Positions 1 through 6,683 of a stretch of DNA of 61,083 bases are shown one piece after another. The DNA is from Candidatus Omnitrophota bacterium (GTDB lineage Bacteria; Omnitrophota; Gorgyraeia; Gygaellales; Profunditerraquicolaceae). The notes under the pieces are model-generated. The model was given only the letters and a program-made list of their open reading frames with translations. It was not told the origin of the DNA and searched no databases. The DNA is taken from positions 1 to 61,083 of the forward strand of contig JBAZLB010000006.1 of NCBI GenBank assembly GCA_041650495.1, in the 5' to 3' direction. Position 1 is the first letter of the stretch. Each line of letters starts with the position of its first letter. Position numbers and translations under genes: made by a program.

Positions 1-373
1 TGTAAGTCAGAGCCATCCGTTTTAGATTTACAAAAGCGCGCATAATCTGAATATTTACCAATACAGCGCGTCTGCTACGTAGAACGCTTGAAAGCATAGC
101 CACGCCCTGCTCGGTAAAAGCAAAAGGCAAATAACCGCCTAAACTCTGCCTTGATGGTATCACATTTTGTGATACCATGATTTTTACTTCCTCATCCGTA
201 ATTTGGAACATAAAATCTTCTGGGAATCTCTCCCGGTTCCTTTTTACCTGTTGCCTTAAGGCTATTGGCTTTACGCCGTAAAGGACAGCGAGATCTTTAT
301 CCAGCATTACTCTTTTGCCTCTAATTTGAAGAATTTTATTTTCAATCTTTTCAACTGATATTACTCTGCCCAT
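1..373 (-). CDS. ORF6N (KilA-N-like) DNA-binding domain protein, copy A; runs off the window start, not in ORF track
   Basis: Manual translation from ATG at 373 (SD AGGAGG): MGRVISVEKIENKILQIRGKRVMLDKDLAVLYGV...RFPEDFMFQ...LPFAFTEQGVAMLSSVL...AVLVNIQIMRAF; same motifs as 4468-5040 and 5586-6116. Confidence 0.9.
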   Translation of the reverse strand, partial: MGRVISVEKIENKILQIRGKRVMLDKDLAVLYGVKPIALRQQVKRNRERFPEDFMFQITDEEVKIMVSQNVIPSRQSLGGYLPFAFTEQGVAMLSSVLRSRRAVLVNIQIMRAFVNLKRMALTY

Positions 374-402: not shown

Positions 403-438
403 TATTAATAGACGTAAAAAGCGATGAAATCTAACATA
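403..438 (-). promoter_or_regulatory. Bipartite motif TGTTAG-N16-CGTCTA upstream of ORF6N copy A (ECF-sigma-like promoter)
   Basis: Minus strand tatgttagatttcatcgctttttacgtctattaa; same boxes and 16-nt spacing before all three ORF6N genes. Confidence 0.55.
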
Positions 439-491
439 AATTTTTACTCATCACCTCGATTTTATCATTTCTCTAAAGCTATCATCCGCGA

Positions 492-625
492 GAGGCTCGA
501 TATGCTGCTTCGCTGGGTTTTTTATTGTTAAATGCAGCATAGCGGACGAATCCGTTTTAAAAACTTCTATGTTTTGAGTCTCAACACGACCTAAAGCGAG
601 GACGCTGTGGCTGGGGCTGCCGCCG
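492..625. ncRNA. Conserved structured non-coding element upstream of ORF6N, copy A (unassigned family)
   Basis: Plus strand GAGGCTCGA-T-ATGCTGC...GCAGCAT-AGCGGACGAA...GAGGACGCTG..GGGGCTG; conserved blocks and covarying stem shared with copies B and C. Confidence 0.55.
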
Positions 626-732
626 CCTCGTCAAAAGAAAAGTAAGTGGTCTTTCTGTGACAAGGTTCTTTTGAGAACAGGTGCAAGATTGGGTTTAGGG
701 CACATAATCCCAATGGGGAATAGCCCACCAAC

Positions 733-785
733 CGGGGACAGACTACGCCATATCTCAATACGAAGTCATCTAAGTGGCCTGTCCC
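733..785. repeat. REP-like inverted repeat GGGGACAGACTAC...GTGGCCTGTCCC
   Basis: Imperfect inverted repeat of about 12 bp in non-coding DNA. Confidence 0.45.
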
Positions 786-947
786 AAAAAACTAACAAGA
801 GGTTACTACAGATTGTGTTAGGCTTGGCAATAAAAACTGCAGATTTAATTCAACAACTGTTTCGATAAACTCAACACTAATCCTGAGTAAAGCCGCAGGA
901 CTAAAGTCCAAAAACCAAATAGACGACTTGGGCTGTCAAAAGTCTAC

Positions 948-1382
948 CTACCAAGGTAAACCGAAACATGTGGAATTATCATCAGTATAATAACAGTGCC
1001 ACGTCTCCTGACCACTGCCCGGGTAATACTGGAGATAGTAAATATAGCCTCTAGAGGCGTTTGGAGCCTTCCCGCCGCCAGTGCACCTGTACGCGGCCAA
1101 ATTACACCACAGTGGATTAGGACTATACACCAGATACGAATAGAAGTTCGTGGTCCTGCAGGTATAATCGACTTCTACATCGCTATTCTGTATACCATCC
1201 AGCGAACCATATTTAAAGTAGTACTCATAGGCAAGCTTACGCATGAAGCCGATCTGAGCTATGGCTTCGGCAGTACGGGCCTTTTCAACTGTAATGGTAT
1301 ATTGAGTAAAGCCTAAGGTAGCCAGAACACCTACAATAACAATCGTTATTATCAACTCAAGCAGGGTAAAGGCTTGCTTCAT
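948..1382 (-). CDS. Type IV pilin-like protein (prepilin N-terminal methylation motif)
   Basis: MKQA/FTLLELIITIVIVGVLATLG class III signal with E5 and hydrophobic helix; Cys/Tyr-rich C-terminus. Confidence 0.85.
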   Translation of the reverse strand: MKQAFTLLELIITIVIVGVLATLGFTQYTITVEKARTAEAIAQIGFMRKLAYEYYFKYGSLDGIQNSDVEVDYTCRTTNFYSYLVYSPNPLWCNLAAYRCTGGGKAPNASRGYIYYLQYYPGSGQETWHCYYTDDNSTCFGLPW

Positions 1383-1553
1383 TCATCTCTCCTTTATTTG
1401 GTCTATATCTATATAGCACCAGTTTTCAAGGGGCTCGAATCCATCCTTACCGTAATACTGGCATAAATAGTTGTCTCATGCTAAAATCTTTAATTTTAAT
1501 TTATATGAGACTACTTTTGCTCATTTTGGTATCTAATCTTGGATTTCAAACAA

Positions 1554-1610
1554 AGTATACACCACCATATATGGGGGTGTCAACAATTAAAACACCATGC
1601 GATAATATGG
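1554..1610 (-). promoter_or_regulatory. Sigma70-type promoter (TTGACA-N18-TATACT) towards the pilin, with palindromic operator-like sites
   Basis: Plus strand agtata 1554-1559 and tgtcaa 1578-1583; ACACC-A-CCATATATGG-GGGTGT palindrome over the spacer; second ACCAT-N8-ATGGT near 1593-1610. Confidence 0.55.
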
Positions 1611-1614
1611 TATT

Positions 1615-1830
1615 ATGAATAATATCGTAGGGATAGAGTTAGGTAGGAAAATTAAAGAGCTTCGTAGGAAACGAGGTATTACACAAGAGCAACTAGCTGA
1701 ACTTATTGAAACTAGCTATAAATACCTTCAAAGAATAGAAGGTAAAAACCCTCCAGATGTAAGATTAACTACTATTATAAGACTTGCCAAAGCGTTGAAA
1801 GTAAAGCCTGCCGAATTGTTGAAGTTTTAA
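1615..1830 (+). CDS. XRE-family helix-turn-helix regulator (controller-protein-like)
   Basis: LGRKIKELRRKRGITQEQLAELIETSYKYLQRIEG...LTTIIRLAKAL is a classic HTH_3. Confidence 0.9.
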   Translation: MNNIVGIELGRKIKELRRKRGITQEQLAELIETSYKYLQRIEGKNPPDVRLTTIIRLAKALKVKPAELLKF

Positions 1831-1881
1831 TCCGTTAATCAAATCTCTTATTCTTTGCATGAATTAGATTTTTTGTTTTCT

Positions 1882-2574
1882 CTACTCTTGCTTTTTATTT
1901 TTACTTAGTCCCTCTATTACTTCGGCAAATGCTAACATTGATAAGCCGCCAATCTGCATCCATACAAAAACCATTTGCCAAAATAACCTACCATTATCAA
2001 GATGTTCTTTAGTTTCAACATTTTTAAGCCATTTATTTTGTATCTCTAATAATCTATCCCCGAACATTTTTTTATTTTTATCTTGTAACTCACGCACTTT
2101 ATCTAATTTTTGCATTACATTAAGATTCTTATCGTTCTGTATTTTATCAATGGTAGCCCGCGTATCCTCATCGCCTTTTCTATCTTTGCCTAACAAGGTA
2201 GACCATCGTTTTGCTAAAAAAATGTTATTATTTAATATGGTTTCTAGAGTTTTTTGCTTTGCTTTCTCGAGTTCCTTTATTTTTTCTTCACTCTTCTCTT
2301 TAATACTTATTTTATTTTTAAGCTGATGTTCATGTATTAACATCTGATAATATTCGACTTCTTGAACAACGGGCAAAGTTTCTCGATCTTCATAAGATAG
2401 AACTGCTAACATTGTTATTATTCTAGTATCATAAAAATTTGTTATTTCTTTATTAATATCCGACATTTTCTTATCAAAACTAACCACAACAACTGTAGCA
2501 ATAAAAGTTGCACAAATTATTAATAATGACCCTAATATTTTTAATTTAATAGTTGCTCTATTCATTATGTTCAT
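1882..2574 (-). CDS. Hypothetical membrane protein (two TM helices flanking a coiled soluble domain)
   Basis: 230-aa ORF with hydrophobic segments at both ends. Confidence 0.6.
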   Translation of the reverse strand: MNIMNRATIKLKILGSLLIICATFIATVVVVSFDKKMSDINKEITNFYDTRIITMLAVLSYEDRETLPVVQEVEYYQMLIHEHQLKNKISIKEKSEEKIKELEKAKQKTLETILNNNIFLAKRWSTLLGKDRKGDEDTRATIDKIQNDKNLNVMQKLDKVRELQDKNKKMFGDRLLEIQNKWLKNVETKEHLDNGRLFWQMVFVWMQIGGLSMLAFAEVIEGLSKNKKQE

Positions 2575-2610
2575 CTACTAAATGAGAATAAATCATGGTT
2601 GTTTCTACAA

Positions 2611-2630
2611 AAAATAGAACCGTCCCTTTT
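2611..2630. repeat. REP-like motif AAATAGAACCGTCCC, copy 1
   Basis: Identical 15-mer at about 5514-5528; both intergenic and followed by T-rich tracts. Confidence 0.5.
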
Positions 2631-2724
2631 ATTTCTTTCCCTTTATTTTTTCTTAATCCCAACAAAGATTATTTCTTAAGAGTTACTAATTGGCTATGCT
2701 GCTAGTGAACCATACCTCTTTACT

Positions 2725-3351
2725 TTAATAACATCCCTGCCAAAATACTGCCCATCTTTGGTAAAGATCGTTCTCATAATATGTCCAGCCAACGCCTACA
2801 ACCATCCCTAATGTTAAACCTGTGCCCTCAATAAGATAGCTTCCCAGCGTTCTTGTTCGTTCAGCGACGCAGTTATTTAATAGAAAAAGTGCTAAAGCAT
2901 AATCACAACGAGTAACGCCAAGTTTATTACAATATTCGATTGCCTGTCTATCTACGGCAAGATGGGTTTCTAAAGGTTGGCTAAACAAACCAGTTTCGGT
3001 ATGAGCTATTTCATGGGCCAATAAACAAATATACTCTTGCTTAATAGTCCATTTTGCCCCTCTTTTCTTCGCTATGTCATACCACCAATGTAAATACTTG
3101 AAATAAAACTCATCAATATAAATTGTAGTGCCTTCTATATATGCCAATTTGAAATTCCTCTTTTTTATAAAATCCTGGTCATTTAGAAACTGAGCTGAAT
3201 ATTTATGTTTTAGGCCAATATTATTTAATTCTTCAAGTGCCCGGTTAAACTCTAACTTATAATCTTGAGGTAAGTTATAAGACAGTATTTTGGGAAGCGA
3301 AGAACAACCACTTAACATTACCACAACGAACAGATAGATTAGTTTTTTCAT
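2725..3351 (-). CDS. Lipoprotein with HEXXH zinc-metallopeptidase motif
   Basis: Lipobox LSGC; LLAHEIAH. Confidence 0.65.
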   Translation of the reverse strand: MKKLIYLFVVVMLSGCSSLPKILSYNLPQDYKLEFNRALEELNNIGLKHKYSAQFLNDQDFIKKRNFKLAYIEGTTIYIDEFYFKYLHWWYDIAKKRGAKWTIKQEYICLLAHEIAHTETGLFSQPLETHLAVDRQAIEYCNKLGVTRCDYALALFLLNNCVAERTRTLGSYLIEGTGLTLGMVVGVGWTYYENDLYQRWAVFWQGCY

Positions 3352-3363
3352 CTTATTTTTCTC

Positions 3364-3792
3364 TTAGCGTCTTAATTGCTCAGAGGATAAATTATTTGAA
3401 CTCTGTATGTTTAAAATCTTATTAATATGTTCGGTTCTTTTCTTCATATCGTTCGTTATTTCATCCTGTATTTTAAAAAAAGAGGGTTTTAATTCTGCAT
3501 CTGCTTTTATTTTCAGGAGCCCGTCAGGTGAATAGGCTTCTTTTACAATATTGTATTTCTCGCGTGGAATAAATACAGCGAGCTGCATATAGCCATAAAC
3601 CATTATGTTGAGTGCTTGCTGATCTCCTTTACTCTTGGCATATATTGCTTGAGCCAATAATGCTGATTCTATATCTTCTTTTGGATAAGGCAATAGCTCA
3701 TCGCAAATACCAAACGCCATAAAAGCAAGGTCTTCTAATAACGCCCCATATTTCTCATTGATTTTATTAAAATCGATTTGCCGATGAGTCAT
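3364..3792 (-). CDS. Hypothetical protein
   Basis: 142-aa ORF tightly coupled to neighbours (ATGA overlap at 3789-3792). Confidence 0.6.
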   Translation of the reverse strand: MTHRQIDFNKINEKYGALLEDLAFMAFGICDELLPYPKEDIESALLAQAIYAKSKGDQQALNIMVYGYMQLAVFIPREKYNIVKEAYSPDGLLKIKADAELKPSFFKIQDEITNDMKKRTEHINKILNIQSSNNLSSEQLRR

Positions 3793-4016
3793 CGTTTCTT
3801 ATCTCGTAAGGTATAGATTAAGAGAATGCCAATAATAAAGATTGGAATAAAATATAACGTTATAACTATGTATACTCCCATTAAAAGCTCAGATAAGCTT
3901 TTTCCATGCCCTCCAGTTCCATAGAACAAAATCCACCTTTTTACCATAAAATATAAAAGCATTAAACAATAAGATAGAATGACAACCCAAACAACTATTA
4001 ATTGCTTTTTATTCAT
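3789..4016 (-). CDS. Hypothetical small membrane protein (2 TM)
   Basis: Two hydrophobic stretches; ATGA overlaps at both ends. Confidence 0.55.
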   Translation of the reverse strand: MNKKQLIVVWVVILSYCLMLLYFMVKRWILFYGTGGHGKSLSELLMGVYIVITLYFIPIFIIGILLIYTLRDKKR

Positions 4017-4255
4017 TTTACTTTACCCAATACATACCTGATCATTCTTGTATTACTAGAATCTTGTCCCGCAAACAATACTGTATATCTTCCATCTTTT
4101 AATAAGGTGTTTATTGATTCTGTTTTGTTTCCTTCAACTACCACAACCTTAACCTCGTAAATATTTCTATTTTTTCCTTTATTATACCAAGTAATTCCAA
4201 TATTAACTGTGATGGTTAATAGCCCAACGATAAATGTTACTATAGTCTGTTCCAT
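4013..4255 (-). CDS. Hypothetical protein with N-terminal TM anchor
   Basis: 80-aa ORF, SD GAGG upstream. Confidence 0.55.
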   Translation of the reverse strand: MEQTIVTFIVGLLTITVNIGITWYNKGKNRNIYEVKVVVVEGNKTESINTLLKDGRYTVLFAGQDSSNTRMIRYVLGKVK

Positions 4256-4467
4256 TTTTACCTCACTGTTATCTTCTTCAGCTTTTTTAAATAATCTTTT
4301 ACATATTTACAAAGATTATTTACGATCTTGCAAGGTAAATCTGATATCGTCATATTTTTTTCTTAACCAAAAAATTACCCTTTTCATAGTAAGAGCGGAT
4401 TCCAATTTATTTCTTGTATCAAACTAACACACCACTCCTTTATAGAATTAAACGTATTATACCACTC

Positions 4468-5040
4468 TCAAGTCCAAAATTTAGTCTTTTTATCTTCATC
4501 GTAAGTACGGAATCCAGTTATTTTCTTTTCTTTTGGCAGAGGCGGCTCAAGCAGTTGCTTTATTGCTTGGAATATCTCTTTTATAGTCTGATCGTGTTCA
4601 GCGTATTTCTTTTCAAGCGCCTCAATCTTTGCTGCCAAGCCTTTATGGGTTAGAAGGATCTCTCTTAGTTTGGTAAATGCCCGCATAATGAGAATATTCA
4701 TCTGTATCGCTCTTTCGCTATTTAATACGCTTGAAAGCATAGCTACCCCGTGTTCTGTAAAAGCATATGGTAAATATTTAATATGTTTACCCCTTTTTGA
4801 GGCTTCAGGTTTTCTATTGTTTAAGGTCACAAATTGTGACCTTAAAGATTCCACTTCTTCCCAAAACAATTGGAACATGAAATCACCAGGGAAACGCTTA
4901 ATGTTTCTTTTTACGGCTTGATTCATAACCTTAGCCGGAACCCCGTAAAGCTTAGCCAAATCCCTATCCAGCATTACTTTTTTACCCCTTAGTTCTAGAA
5001 TCCTTGTAGCAATAAATTCAACGGCGATTGCATTAGACAT
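4468..5040 (-). CDS. ORF6N domain-containing protein, copy B
   Basis: RGKKVMLDRDLAKLYGV...KRNIKRFPGDFMFQL...PYAFTEHGVAMLSSVLNS; C-terminal coiled coil and KITGF tail. Confidence 0.92.
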   Translation of the reverse strand: MSNAIAVEFIATRILELRGKKVMLDRDLAKLYGVPAKVMNQAVKRNIKRFPGDFMFQLFWEEVESLRSQFVTLNNRKPEASKRGKHIKYLPYAFTEHGVAMLSSVLNSERAIQMNILIMRAFTKLREILLTHKGLAAKIEALEKKYAEHDQTIKEIFQAIKQLLEPPLPKEKKITGFRTYDEDKKTKFWT

Positions 5041-5060
5041 TTTATCTTCTCCTTTCTGCT

Positions 5061-5094
5061 ATAATAGACGCAGCAAAGAGTAGAACCTAACATA
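5061..5094 (-). promoter_or_regulatory. TGTTAG-N16-CGTCTA motif upstream of ORF6N copy B
   Basis: Minus strand tatgttaggttctactctttgctgcgtctattatag. Confidence 0.55.
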
Positions 5095-5145
5095 TTTTTT
5101 TATCCTCAGCAAGATTTTTTGCTGGCTCTTAAGCCCCATCCATAA

Positions 5146-5278
5146 GAAGCTCGGCGTCTCACCGTCCAAAGAGGCTTCTAATTTGTCATAGGCGAGACAG
5201 CGGACGAACTCTTCTTATAAGCTAATATCTTTATGTGTAAATACTTGTTGGAGTGAGGACGCTGGGGCTGGACGGCGA
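5146..5278. ncRNA. Conserved structured non-coding element upstream of ORF6N, copy B
   Basis: Plus strand GAAGCTCGG-C-GTCTC...GAGAC-AGCGGACGAA...GAGGACGCTGGGGCTG. Confidence 0.55.
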
Positions 5279-5513
5279 CAACCTCAGCCGCAAGCCAAGA
5301 CGAACACGCATTGCATTAACAAGAAAACTACCGACCAAGGCGCGGTGTCTATAATTTCATTGAAGTGACTTATTATAAAAACGCTATCGGTCAATAGGCC
5401 TGAAAGGTGACCCCGCTAAGGCGGCCCAGAAATATAGCTCGCAAGAAAAACTCTCTGTATAATATTATAAAACTCTGCAAATCTCCTAAGCGTTCCCAAA
5501 CGAATAAACAAGA

Positions 5514-5530
5514 AATAGAACCGTCCCCTT
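5514..5530. repeat. REP-like motif AAATAGAACCGTCCCC, copy 2
   Basis: Matches 2611-2630. Confidence 0.5.
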
Positions 5531-5585
5531 TATTCCTTTATTCTTTACCTCCAGCTATGCTTATTATACTACTTCAATAAAATAT

Positions 5586-6116
5586 TTAACTGTTTTCCGG
5601 TCCTCGTGAAACATGAAAACCAATCATCTTTTTCTCTTTTGGGGTCGGGGGTTCTAATAATTGCTTAATAGCTTGAAATACAATCGCAAACTGTTTATCA
5701 TATTTCTTTTCCATTTCTTCAATCTTGCGCTTAAGGTCTTTATTGGTTAAAAGCATGCGTCTTAACTGGATGAAGGCCCGCATAATCTGAATGTTCACCA
5801 GTATTGCTTTCTTGCTATTTAATACGCTAGATAACATTGCTACGCCTTGCTCAGTAAACGCATAAGGAAGATATTTAGAATACTTACCCATTTCTAAGGT
5901 GACAAATTGGCACCTTAGAATTTCCTTATACTCTTTCCTGGTTAACGGTATTAAAAAGTCCGCTGGAAATCGCTCCATATTTCTGCGTACCTGCCTATTT
6001 AAGTATTTTGTTTCTACGCCATAGAGTTTGGCTAAATCCTTATCCAACATTACCCTCTTGCCCCTAAGAAATATGATTCTTGAAGCAATTACTTCTACAG
6101 ATACTAAGTTTGACAT
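5586..6116 (-). CDS. ORF6N domain-containing protein, copy C (ATG 6116 preferred over GTG 6125)
   Basis: RGKRVMLDKDLAKLYGVETK...RFPADF...PYAFTEQGVAMLSSVLNS; SD GGAGG upstream of the ATG. Confidence 0.92.
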   Translation of the reverse strand: MSNLVSVEVIASRIIFLRGKRVMLDKDLAKLYGVETKYLNRQVRRNMERFPADFLIPLTRKEYKEILRCQFVTLEMGKYSKYLPYAFTEQGVAMLSSVLNSKKAILVNIQIMRAFIQLRRMLLTNKDLKRKIEEMEKKYDKQFAIVFQAIKQLLEPPTPKEKKMIGFHVSRGPENS

Positions 6117-6133
6117 ATTTACCACCTCCTATA

Positions 6134-6167
6134 TTAATAGACGTATAAAAGGCCAAAATCTAACATA
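6134..6167 (-). promoter_or_regulatory. TGTTAG-N16-CGTCTA motif upstream of ORF6N copy C
   Basis: Minus strand tatgttagattttggccttttatacgtctattaata. Confidence 0.55.
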
Positions 6168-6222
6168 AAAATTCTTTATTTTTCTCATCAAAGTTTCTTC
6201 TCAGCTCTCAAACTATTAGCCA

Positions 6223-6330
6223 AGAGGCTCGGCATGCCGCATTGCCGAGTTTTTTGTTTGTTAATTGCGGCATAGCGGACGACCGTAGTTTTTTATGGAT
6301 TGATTAGAGAACGCTGGGGCTGGCGGCGGT
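6223..6330. ncRNA. Conserved structured non-coding element upstream of ORF6N, copy C
   Basis: Plus strand GAGGCTCGG-C-ATGCCGC...GCGGCAT-AGCGGACGAC...GAGAACGCTGGGGCTG. Confidence 0.55.
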
Positions 6331-6496
6331 ATTGCTTATACAAAACCCCACAAATCTACGCAGTCAGCTCTAAAGCAATAAAAAAAGCGTAACTGCTTCA
6401 AAAATGAAGTAATTACGCCTAATTATAATAAAAGAGAGGGTGATAATTACTCTCTAGGTTATCCCGCCTCGTAAGATGCGTCACTCTATAAAAGAA

Positions 6497-6604
6497 TATC
6501 CCCGTAGATAAACACGTCGTCGATTTCTTCGAAATCTCCTCGTATCTGCGGGGATAAATTCGGCCAAACAACTTAGCTTCGCTTTCGCTCGCTAAGTTGT
6601 GGCC
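6497..6604. repeat. Two long REP-like hairpins immediately 3' of tRNA-Phe
   Basis: TATCCCCGTAGATA...TATCTGCGGGGATA enclosing GATTTC-TTC-GAAATC; then ACAACTTAGC-N13-GCTAAGTTGT closed by GGCC/GGCC. Confidence 0.55.
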
Positions 6605-6611
6605 TCATTTA

Positions 6612-6683
6612 TGCCGAGGGAGGGAATCGGACCCCCCACGCCGGCCTTTTCAGGGCCGCGCTCTACCACTGAGCTACCTCGGC
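6612..6683 (-). tRNA. tRNA-Phe (GAA), CCA not encoded
   Basis: GCCGAGG TA GCTC AGTGGTA GAGC G CGGCC CTGAAAA GGCCG GCGTG GGGGG TCCGATT CCCTC CCTCGGC A; complete cloverleaf. Confidence 0.93.

What the first reader, a model, noticed from the sequence alone, without database searches (positions are those of the whole stretch)
492..6330. Three diverged ORF6N genes each carry the same covarying ~110-135 nt structured non-coding element
Seen in sequence: about 100 nt upstream of each ORF6N start (492-625, 5146-5278, 6223-6330) lie the conserved blocks GARGCTCGR / AGCGGACGA / GAGRACGCTG(G)GGGCTG, separated by variable-length spacers. The stem between blocks 1 and 2 changes sequence but keeps pairing: ATGCTGC/GCAGCAT, GTCTC/GAGAC, ATGCCGC/GCGGCAT. 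AGCG can pair with CGCT in all copies, and RGCTC with GGGCT on the plus strand. The ORF6N proteins are clearly diverged and the rest of the intergenic DNA does not align, so this is selection on structure rather than recent duplication. I cannot match it to any riboswitch, ribozyme or tRNA family I know. Inference: an undescribed ORF6N-associated RNA, or an ssDNA hairpin acting as a recombination/mobility site, forming a repeated module ORF6N + promoter + element. Strand is ambiguous because G-U wobbles favour minus for one stem and plus for another.
Basis: partly seen in the sequence, partly recalled or inferred. Interest (0 to 1): 0.82.

Follow-up and report, generated by a model that had tools for sequence, protein, structure and literature searches.

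The report
Broken copies of a new RNA gene
The three repeated elements are real, but they are broken front ends of a larger, previously uncatalogued structured RNA gene of Omnitrophota bacteria that sits beside small regulator genes in mobile gene islands.

Summary
Three homologous non-coding elements lie at 489-628, 5144-5342 and 6221-6327 on the + strand, each about 100 nt upstream of a divergent ORF6N gene.

They are not a self-contained 110-135 nt element. Exact-pattern scans found 71 related loci, where named all Omnitrophota. In those the conserved sequence continues, giving a core of about 280 nt with nine helices.

- On 47 sequences, 93% of cells pair, against 30-40% when partners are slid.
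- 27 of 57 pairs show double changes.
- No Rfam 15 family matches, and it is not the tmRNA.

Window copies 1 and 3 stop in the loop of the GC hairpin P4. Copy 2 has an internal deletion of about 80 nt. All three look like decayed copies.

The ORF6N link is real but partial.

- 7 of 24 'group A' loci have a divergent ORF6N.
- 11 of 21 'group B' loci have a divergent Xre-HTH gene instead.
- Eleven loci have a large serine recombinase next to the RNA's 3' end.
- One island flanked by tRNA-Phe repeats contains two copies.

The function of the RNA is unknown.

The parts
1..373 (-). ORF6N gene 1. It is cut by the end of the source contig.
   Evidence: PF10543 E 7.4e-34. The contig ERZ27247363 k141_266218 ends here.
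404..434 (-). Promoter-like site for ORF6N-1 (TTAGAT, 18 nt, TATTAAT). The same arrangement recurs at 5061-5090 and 6133-6163.
   Evidence: Read directly from the sequence and conserved in all three modules. Function is inferred.
489..628 (+). RNA copy 1: profile positions 2-142 of 283. It has the P1 5' strand, P2, P3 and the P4 5' strand plus loop, then homology stops.
   Evidence: nhmmer E 3.5e-28. The module 3-627 aligns at 78% over 643 nt to L091, where the RNA is full length.
629..4467 (.). Cargo between modules 1 and 2: a pilin-like gene (948-1382), an Xre-type HTH gene (1615-1830, + strand) and five small genes without Pfam hits. No recombinase was seen here.
   Evidence: ORF list, Pfam, called genes.
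4468..5040 (-). ORF6N gene 2 (190 aa, intact).
   Evidence: PF10543 E 3.4e-33. More than 7900 homologues; every top hit that carries a source name is Omnitrophota/Omnitrophica or simply 'bacterium'.
5144..5385 (+). RNA copy 2: profile positions 3-205, with degenerate P4 and P1 3' strand. An internal deletion of about 80 nt removes the P5 3' half, P6 and the P7 5' half. The sequence resumes with the P7 3' half and tail.
   Evidence: nhmmer E 6.4e-34. Pairwise alignment to L135.
5586..6125 (-). ORF6N gene 3 (about 176-179 aa, intact).
   Evidence: PF10543 E 6.6e-33.
6221..6327 (+). RNA copy 3: profile positions 2-131. It stops after the P4 5' strand.
   Evidence: nhmmer E 3.2e-21.
6328..6611 (.). 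Native trailer of tRNA-Phe. It marks the junction between the island array and the chromosome.
   Evidence: The same trailer follows tRNA-Phe in L145, which has no RNA piece.
6612..6683 (-). tRNA-Phe (GAA), convergent with the RNA copies.
   Evidence: ARAGORN, Rfam 63.5 bits. It is 100% identical to the tRNA-Phe next to RNA copies in L090 and L095.

Best explanation
The three elements are the 5' portions of three old, diverged copies of a larger structured non-coding RNA gene found in Omnitrophota.

**The intact gene.** It has a core of about 280 nt on the window's + strand.
- P1 closes a junction that holds the variable hairpin P2, P3 and the 13-bp GC hairpin P4.
- P3 carries an invariant GACGA/GAGGA internal loop and an AU-rich insert.
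- Hairpins P5, P6 and P7 follow.
- Conservation runs a further 50-130 nt upstream and 75-110 nt downstream.

**Its usual neighbours.** A small DNA-binding regulator gene is often transcribed divergently from it: ORF6N in one RNA subgroup, Xre-HTH in the other. It lies in or at the edge of mobile islands near tRNA genes, often next to a large serine recombinase.

**This window.** Three regulator-plus-RNA modules have piled up beside tRNA-Phe, and all three RNA copies are broken. Two are cut in the P4 loop. One has lost about 80 nt between two CCAAGGC loop sequences. As RNAs they are most likely dead relics. The ORF6N genes stay intact and keep their own promoter region.

**Shown:** the homology, the structure and covariation of the family, the truncation points, and the gene associations.

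**Inferred:** that the element is transcribed from the + strand, that the window copies are non-functional, and that they accumulated through island insertion and recombination. What the intact RNA does is unknown. My best guess is a trans-acting RNA of the island's regulator/integrase module.
For: **Homologues and extent.** Pattern scans gave 15 genome loci, named Omnitrophota apart from one 'bacterium' record, and 56 metagenome loci. Alignments show the sequence continuing past the window copies.

**Structure.** With nine helices on 47 sequences, 93.4% of cells pair, against 29.6-40.3% when partners are slid. Double changes occur in 27 of 57 pairs. The covariation score is 0.233 against 0.089 for shuffles, reached by 0 of 500.

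**Window copies.** The profile covers only positions 2-142, 3-205 and 2-131 of 283. No other piece exists in the 61 kb. The deletion in copy 2 is shown. Whole modules align to ORF6N plus full-length RNA units elsewhere: L091 at 78% over 643 nt and L128 at 81% over 796 nt.

**Regulator pairing.** A divergent ORF6N is present in 7 of 24 group A loci and a divergent Xre HTH_3 gene in 11 of 21 group B loci.

**Mobile context.**
- A large serine recombinase lies beside the RNA's 3' end in 11 loci.
- Cargo includes SIR2/STAND, TIR, an N6 methylase and an IS30 transposase.
- The L095 island, flanked by a 22-nt repeat of the tRNA-Phe 3' end, contains two RNA copies.
- IS or MITE insertions sit in the P5 loop, and there are several other decayed copies.

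**Strand.**
- The + strand folds better in 42 of 47 sequences.
- G.A mismatches number 64 against 5 C.U.
- In 5 group B loci, a TTGACA-N17-TAGCAT promoter points at the element.
- In most loci, terminators follow it on the + strand.
Against: - No expression data exist. G-U (23) barely exceeds A-C (17) in the consensus pairs, so an RNA rather than a single-stranded DNA structure is not proven.
- The order of copies does not fit simple tandem accretion at one att site. The copy that keeps 3' sequence is the middle one.
- No recombinase lies in window 629-4467, and the array runs off the contig end, so how the modules accumulated is unresolved.
- The truncated copies keep P2 and P3 well conserved (71-85% identity), which could mean a residual function.
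- Whether the intact RNA belongs to the islands or is a host gene that islands target is not settled.
Confidence: 0.72

Rival explanations
1. The 5' domain alone is functional. It could be a short RNA (P2 plus P3) or a DNA operator/promoter region that controls the adjacent ORF6N gene, so the three copies are maintained by selection in this genome.
For: - All three ORF6N genes next to the pieces are intact.
- The pieces and the intergenic regions are the best conserved part of the modules, at 71-88% against 54-61% protein identity.
- Group A copies carry a terminator-like hairpin plus U-run inside P2, for example 6221-6256. That could give a short transcript.
Against: - The P1 partner, the P4 3' strand and P5-P7 are missing, so the family's junction cannot form.
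- The two truncations end 11 profile positions apart, and copy 2 has a different lesion.
- Close ORF6N homologues do without the element: 6 of 8 have nothing or only scrambled scraps.
- Single-sequence folds of the pieces are no better than shuffles, with z from -1.5 to +0.1.
Confidence: 0.1
2. The element acts as folded single-stranded DNA, not RNA. It could be a single-strand replication origin or a recombination (att-like) site of an integrative element, with the P4 hairpin as the crossover point that produces the truncated copies.
For: - The context is mobile islands and serine recombinases.
- Breakpoints recur in P4: window copies 1 and 3, and L103.
- Isolated P4-like hairpins lie downstream of several full copies.
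- G-U pairs show only a weak excess over A-C.
- Tandem G.A pairs are also stable in DNA (general knowledge).
Against: - A sigma70-like promoter with fixed 17-nt spacing points into the element, and intrinsic terminators follow it, as for an RNA gene.
- Nine helices with conserved junction sequences are far more than known att or attC sites need.
- Most copies are intact with no recombinase nearby.
- No relaxase or Rep gene was seen in the flanks that were examined.
Confidence: 0.12
3. The RNA is an ordinary chromosomal housekeeping-type RNA gene, as tRNA or tmRNA genes are. Islands merely use it as a landing site, and the window pieces are scars of such insertions.
For: - Each named genome gave one hit in the species-level collection.
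- The RNA is GC-rich in AT-rich genomes.
- Islands, recombinases, and IS or MITE insertions abut or interrupt it.
- L112 carries a duplicated 3' fragment just downstream of an intact copy, as at tRNA att sites.
Against: - In L095 both copies lie inside an island bounded by tRNA-Phe repeats.
- L090 and L095 each carry two copies that are 93-97% identical.
- Syntenic relatives such as L145, L146 and L150 lack it at this locus.
- The scars here are 5' parts that carry a regulator gene, the opposite of what 3'-end targeting leaves.
Confidence: 0.3

Closest known systems
Orphan large structured bacterial RNAs (raiA, OLE, ROOL, GOLLD, HEARO)
   Same: A long, multi-helix, strongly covarying non-coding RNA of unknown function. 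It is lineage-restricted and often sits near tRNA genes or mobile DNA, as reported for ROOL and GOLLD (from my own knowledge).
   Different: No sequence or structure match to any of them at E up to 5. The core is smaller, about 280 nt. It is paired with a divergent regulator gene, and many decayed copies exist.
tRNA and tmRNA genes as island integration sites that leave partial gene copies
   Same: A conserved structured RNA gene flanked by islands and recombinases, with partial copies left behind. One island here is bounded by a repeat of the tRNA-Phe 3' end.
   Different: The fragments here are 5' parts that carry an upstream gene, not 3' att repeats. The RNA itself can lie inside the island. 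A canonical tmRNA exists elsewhere in a related genome.
Prophage/ICE switch modules with a divergent repressor and a rightward transcript
   Same: A small Xre-HTH or KilA-N-like (ORF6N) gene divergent from a promoter with palindromic operators. An integrase gene is often downstream.
   Different: The first rightward product is a structured RNA of about 280-500 nt rather than a Cro-like protein. Regulation has not been tested.
Integron attC sites and single-strand origins (folded single-stranded DNA elements)
   Same: A strand-specific conserved structure with variable sequence, sitting next to cassette-like genes in a repeated array.
   Different: It is much larger and more complex. There is no IntI integrase, blocks are invariant over 10-16 nt, and promoter and terminator signals flank it.

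Membership tests
Any Rfam 15 family | Covariance-model score at or above the gathering threshold | tested here: not met
   Window: only tRNA and c-di-GMP-I reach threshold, and nothing overlaps the elements beyond noise at E up to 10. Full-length copies: no hit at gathering threshold in 15 loci or at E up to 5 in 6 loci.
tmRNA (ssrA) | tRNA-like domain formed by the 5' and 3' ends, T-arm, and a tag reading frame; detected by ARAGORN or Rfam | tested here: not met
   ARAGORN finds no tmRNA at any of the 71 loci. No conserved reading frame or stop codon was found by inspection. A candidate helix between the two ends and a candidate T-arm fail on inspection. A canonical tmRNA lies next to smpB in related locus L160.
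Bacterial RNase P RNA | Conserved regions CR-I to CR-V and the P4 long-range helix | tested here: not met
   No RNase P model hit at E up to 5. Only a GAGGA...GGGCU resemblance to CR-I, seen by eye. The helix layout differs.
Integron attC site | A 60-140 nt imperfect palindrome with R''/L''-L'/R' boxes, at the 3' end of cassettes, near an IntI gene | tested here: not met
   The unit is 280 nt or more with nine helices. It lies on the 5' side of the adjacent gene. No tyrosine integrase was found in the window array.
Structured non-coding RNA gene (generic) | Compensatory base changes in several helices that exceed controls | tested here: met
   27 of 57 pairs have double changes. The covariation score is 0.233 against 0.039 or less when partners are slid, and 0.089 when shuffled (0 of 500 reach it).
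Structured non-coding RNA gene (generic) | Evidence of transcription (promoter, terminator, transcripts) | tested here: inconclusive
   A promoter-like TTGACA-N17-TAGCAT lies upstream in 5 group B loci. Terminators lie downstream. No transcript data are available.
ORF6N domain proteins (PF10543), the neighbouring genes | Pfam ORF6N domain above the gathering score | tested here: met
   113-116 bits against a cut-off of 27.8 for all three.
Large serine recombinase, neighbour of many homologues | Resolvase, Recombinase and Zn_ribbon_recom domains | tested here: met
   The L110 protein has all three domains. Eleven loci have homologues beside the RNA's 3' end. None is in the window array.

The most novel reading that the evidence does not exclude
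The intact RNA is a working part of a new kind of integrative island in Omnitrophota. It would be made from a repressor-controlled promoter and needed for the island's recombination or maintenance, for example by guiding or licensing the neighbouring serine recombinase, or by marking island ends (inverted copies bracket the cargo in L090 and L095). The window array would then record repeated cassette capture at tRNA-Phe.
Probability: 0.1. Interest if true: 0.85.

Novelty: new member of a known kind. Interest (0 to 1): 0.6.

Why it matters
The finding leads to a well-supported structured RNA family that is not in Rfam 15. It comes from an uncultivated phylum of very small, possibly host-dependent bacteria.

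- The structure is already well defined: nine helices, invariant G.A-rich loops and C-rich apical loops.
- Its regular pairing with a divergent ORF6N or Xre regulator, and with serine recombinases and defence cargo, links it to mobile islands. Few large RNAs with a role in such islands are known.
- For genome annotation, repeated 'conserved non-coding elements' can be dead pieces of a larger RNA gene. Covariation among such pieces can be inherited rather than maintained in place.

Tried and rejected
- **Closing helix between the far 5' box (GGYUCUCAAGC) and the 3' extension.** It pairs in a few loci but fails or turns into direct similarity in most.
- **tRNA-like 3' end.** GCACCA appears in some class (i) tails, but there is no T-arm and no compensating 5' strand. 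The tail's stem does not covary. In L095 the CCA belongs to a shared terminator hairpin and to a tRNA-Phe repeat.
- **tmRNA and RNase P.** See the membership tests.
- **Decayed protein gene.** Indels are not in multiples of three. Changes are compensatory in stems. The ORF overlapping the core has no Pfam hit.
- **Paired inverted copies as a general rule.** Four of the six cases are 100% identical fold-backs of 115-162 nt at the first base of a contig or stored locus, and look like assembly artefacts. Only L090 and L095 are real.
- **P6-loop pseudoknot with the downstream GGGAG.** It covaries in some subgroups but not in others, so I left it out.
- **RNAalifold on the raw MAFFT alignment.** It recovered only part of the structure, so I set the helices by hand and tested them by counting.
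- **Phage, plasmid and viral-contig searches for the RNA.** All were empty.
- **Covariance model.** I did not build one. A model this long was likely to exceed the calibration limit, and the nhmmer profile answered the search questions.
Full report
**1. The observation**

The three elements exist as described. AGCGGACGA occurs exactly three times in the window (541, 5199, 6274), and GACGCTGGGGCTGG occurs with at most one mismatch at 601, 5258 and 6310. The three copies align over block 1, a variable stem, block 2, a variable spacer and block 3.

The flanking minus-strand genes at 1-373 (cut by the contig end), 4468-5040 and 5586-6125 are ORF6N proteins (PF10543, E about 1e-33).

Rfam 15 reports only tRNA-Phe (6612-6683) and a c-di-GMP-I riboswitch (15719-15853) in the window. 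Nothing credible overlaps the elements even at E up to 10.

**2. The elements are parts of something larger**

An exact-pattern scan (block 2, a gap of 25-55 nt, block 3) of one genome per species gave 87 hits. Fifteen carry the whole architecture. Fourteen of them are named Omnitrophota or Omnitrophica and one simply 'bacterium'. The remaining hits are chance matches inside coding regions of high-GC genomes. A tighter pattern found 56 metagenome loci.

In nearly all of these, conservation continues about 170 nt past block 3:
- GGGGCUG opens a 13-bp GC hairpin (P4).
- Next comes AAGCCGAGCC, which is complementary to block 1.
- Then come a conserved single-stranded stretch and three more hairpins.

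Block 1 and its partner covary (GGCUCGG/CCGAGCC against GGCGCAG/CUGCGCC).

**3. Structure and covariation**

I set nine helices on a 47-sequence MAFFT alignment and counted pairs.
- 93.4% of 2580 cells form standard pairs. When the 3' partners are slid by 1-3 columns the figure is 29.6-40.3%.
- 27 of 57 pairs have changes on both sides, in 236 cells.
- The covariation score is 0.233. It is 0.039 or less for the slid versions and 0.089 for shuffles, and none of 500 shuffles reaches the observed value.
- P1, P2, P3b, P5, P6 and P7 all show double changes.
- P3a (AGCG/CGCU) and most of P4 never vary, so they say nothing either way.

Two G.A-rich motifs stand out. P3 has an invariant 5x5 internal loop, GACGA/GAGGA. 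P6 has a tandem G.A step whose flanking pairs covary. The apical loops are C-rich (CCCAAG-like).

The MAFFT register is imperfect in P4, P6b and P7. That lowers the apparent support rather than raising it.

**4. Strand and transcription**

Several lines favour the window's + strand:
- It folds better in 42 of 47 sequences, by 6.6 kcal/mol on average.
- Non-standard cells are mostly G.A (64 against 5 C.U), which would be pyrimidine mismatches on the other strand.
- Five group B loci have TTGACA-17 nt-TAGCAT about 125 nt upstream of P1, pointing at the element and overlapped by palindromes.
- Intrinsic terminators follow the conserved 3' extension on the + strand in most loci.

Against this, G-U pairs (23) barely exceed A-C (17). 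A single-stranded DNA structure is therefore not excluded, and I keep it as a rival.

An upstream hairpin with a constant loop, CCCGCACC, covaries sharply: GGCAAAUUUUG/CAAAAUUUGCC against GGGCGGGCGUG/CACGCCCGCCC. The conserved unit therefore extends beyond the 283-position core on both sides, but I could not fix its ends.

**5. The window copies are broken**

A profile of the core matches window 489-628 over positions 2-142, window 6221-6327 over positions 2-131, and window 5144-5342 over positions 3-205. Nothing else in the 61 kb matches.
- Copies 1 and 3 stop in or just before the loop of P4. They lack the P4 3' strand, the P1 3' strand and P5-P7.
- Copy 2 has a degenerate P4 and P1 partner. 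It jumps from the P5 loop to the P7 3' half, a loss of about 80 nt between two CCAAGGC sequences. It then continues into the usual 3' tail to about 5385.
- Single-sequence folds of the pieces are no better than shuffled controls.

The three modules are old. ORF6N proteins are 54-61% identical, the RNA parts 71-85% and the intergenic parts 72-88%. Each module aligns as a whole to an ORF6N plus full-length RNA unit in another genome: L091 at 78% over 643 nt, L128 at 81% over 796 nt, and also L116 and L090.

**6. Gene associations of the family**

I counted distinct loci with enough flank.
- The GGCUCGG-type subgroup (A) has a divergent ORF6N directly upstream in 7 of 24 loci, and never an Xre gene.
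- The GGCGCAG-type subgroup (B) has a divergent Xre HTH_3 gene in 11 of 21 loci, and never ORF6N.

I then sampled from the ORF6N side with eight close homologues (78-91% identity).
- None has the window-like arrangement.
- One (L159) has a full RNA 290 nt upstream, in tandem orientation.
- One (L156) has an RNA piece and a recombinase 2.9 kb away.
- Two (L146, L150) have only scrambled scraps.
- Four have nothing.

So a module of regulator, divergent promoter region and RNA is real, but ORF6N is only one of two regulators and usually occurs without the RNA.

At the RNA's 3' side, eleven loci have a large serine recombinase (Resolvase, Recombinase and Zn-ribbon domains). Eight are co-directional, starting 200-520 nt after the core, and three are convergent. 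Neighbouring cargo includes a SIR2/STAND protein, a TIR protein, an N6 methylase, an AAA ATPase and an IS30 transposase. IS or MITE insertions sit in the P5 loop in L062, L116, L123 and L137. Other decayed copies exist in L051, L103 and L017.

**7. Island context**

In L095, a 22-nt direct repeat of the tRNA-Phe 3' end and trailer brackets a 4.2-kb segment. That segment consists of an inverted RNA copy, a SIR2/STAND gene and a second RNA copy. The repeat that contains the two copies is 95% identical over 384 nt.

L090 has tRNA-Phe, a serine recombinase, RNA(-), ORF6N(+), 5 kb of cargo and RNA(+).

In the window, the tRNA-Phe is 100% identical to those of L090 and L095. The 284 nt between copy 3 and the tRNA is the tRNA's native trailer, as in L145, a syntenic relative without any RNA piece. 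The array is therefore island material abutting the tRNA-Phe region.

It runs off the contig end inside ORF6N-1, and no recombinase lies within it. The order of lesions, with the copy that keeps 3' sequence in the middle, does not fit simple tandem accretion. I can only say the modules accumulated by insertion and recombination and then decayed.

Four apparent inverted second copies (L046, L048, L087, L117) are 100% identical fold-backs at the first base of a contig or stored locus. I treat them as assembly artefacts.

**8. What it is not**

- No Rfam family matches full-length copies.
- ARAGORN finds no tmRNA at any locus, and a canonical tmRNA lies next to smpB in related locus L160.
- A helix between the two ends and a tRNA-like 3' end were examined and rejected.
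- It is not a decayed protein gene. Indels are not in threes, changes are compensatory, and the overlapping ORF has no Pfam hit.
- It is absent from the phage, plasmid and viral-contig collections.
- Literature searches found no description of it. One 2026 preprint (10.64898/2026.05.20.726742) describes an integrative module with an integrase and paired KilA-N/ORF6N regulators in an Omnitrophota element, which fits the context.

**9. Verdict**

Its size, its key pairing, its exclusivity to ORF6N and its functional state in this window were wrong.

The window holds three pseudogene-like 5' remnants. The interest lies in the intact family they point to, an RNA with a core of about 280 nt (possibly 400-500 nt in all), nine helices and unknown function, tied to Xre/ORF6N regulators, serine recombinases and tRNA-linked islands in Omnitrophota.

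Noticed in passing
window 15719-15853 (-): A c-di-GMP-I riboswitch (52.8 bits, gathering score 35). A second one lies about 1 kb from the RNA in L007 (locus 833-917).
   Followed up: no
L160 126-530 (-), next to smpB at 641-1096: A canonical tmRNA (ARAGORN, tag GRPQTVFA*) in a related Omnitrophota contig. It shows that standard tools detect the tmRNA of this lineage.
   Followed up: partly
L062, L116, L123, L137 (P5 loop of the RNA): An IS or MITE with ends like GGTTGTCCGACAAT is inserted at the same spot, the CC(A/T)AGG loop of hairpin P5. This suggests a hairpin-loop target preference.
   Followed up: partly
L046 1-162, L048 1-126, L087 1-126, L117 1-115: 100% identical inverted copies of the RNA's 5' region lie at the very first base of the contig or stored locus. 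They look like assembler fold-backs, not biology.
   Followed up: partly
L095 87-108 and 4322-4343: A 22-nt direct repeat of the tRNA-Phe 3' end and trailer brackets a 4.2-kb island that carries one SIR2/STAND (defence-like) gene between two inverted RNA copies.
   Followed up: yes
L022, L048, L109, L125, L136, about 100-200 nt downstream of the full RNA: Isolated GC hairpins resemble P4 (for example GGGTTTGCGGCCGCCCGCGCCCGGCCGCAAACCC) with similar C-rich loops. The upstream hairpin has the loop CCCGCACC, which resembles the P4 loop of some copies. Their meaning is unknown.
   Followed up: partly
3' of the core in class (i) and (ii) loci (e.g. L091, L125); degenerate at window 5368-5400: Promoter-like TTGACT-17 nt-TAATCT or TTGCAA-17 nt-TAAGAT with a variable spacer of fixed length, then about 60 conserved nt and a variable terminator. 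This could be a second small RNA or part of the same transcript.
   Followed up: partly
window 2725-3351 (-): A 208-aa predicted lipoprotein with an HEIAH (HExxH-type) motif and no Pfam hit, within a run of small membrane-protein genes (1882-4255) between ORF6N modules 1 and 2.
   Followed up: no
L112, about 70 nt after the end of the full copy's 3' extension: A duplicated 3' fragment of the RNA runs from P7 to ...GCACACCG. Several other loci (L105, L115, L122, L139) lose homology at the same CACCG point, which may be an attachment site.
   Followed up: partly
L051 4533-4730 (stored locus coordinates): A group I intron hit (73.7 bits) lies near a truncated RNA copy.
   Followed up: no
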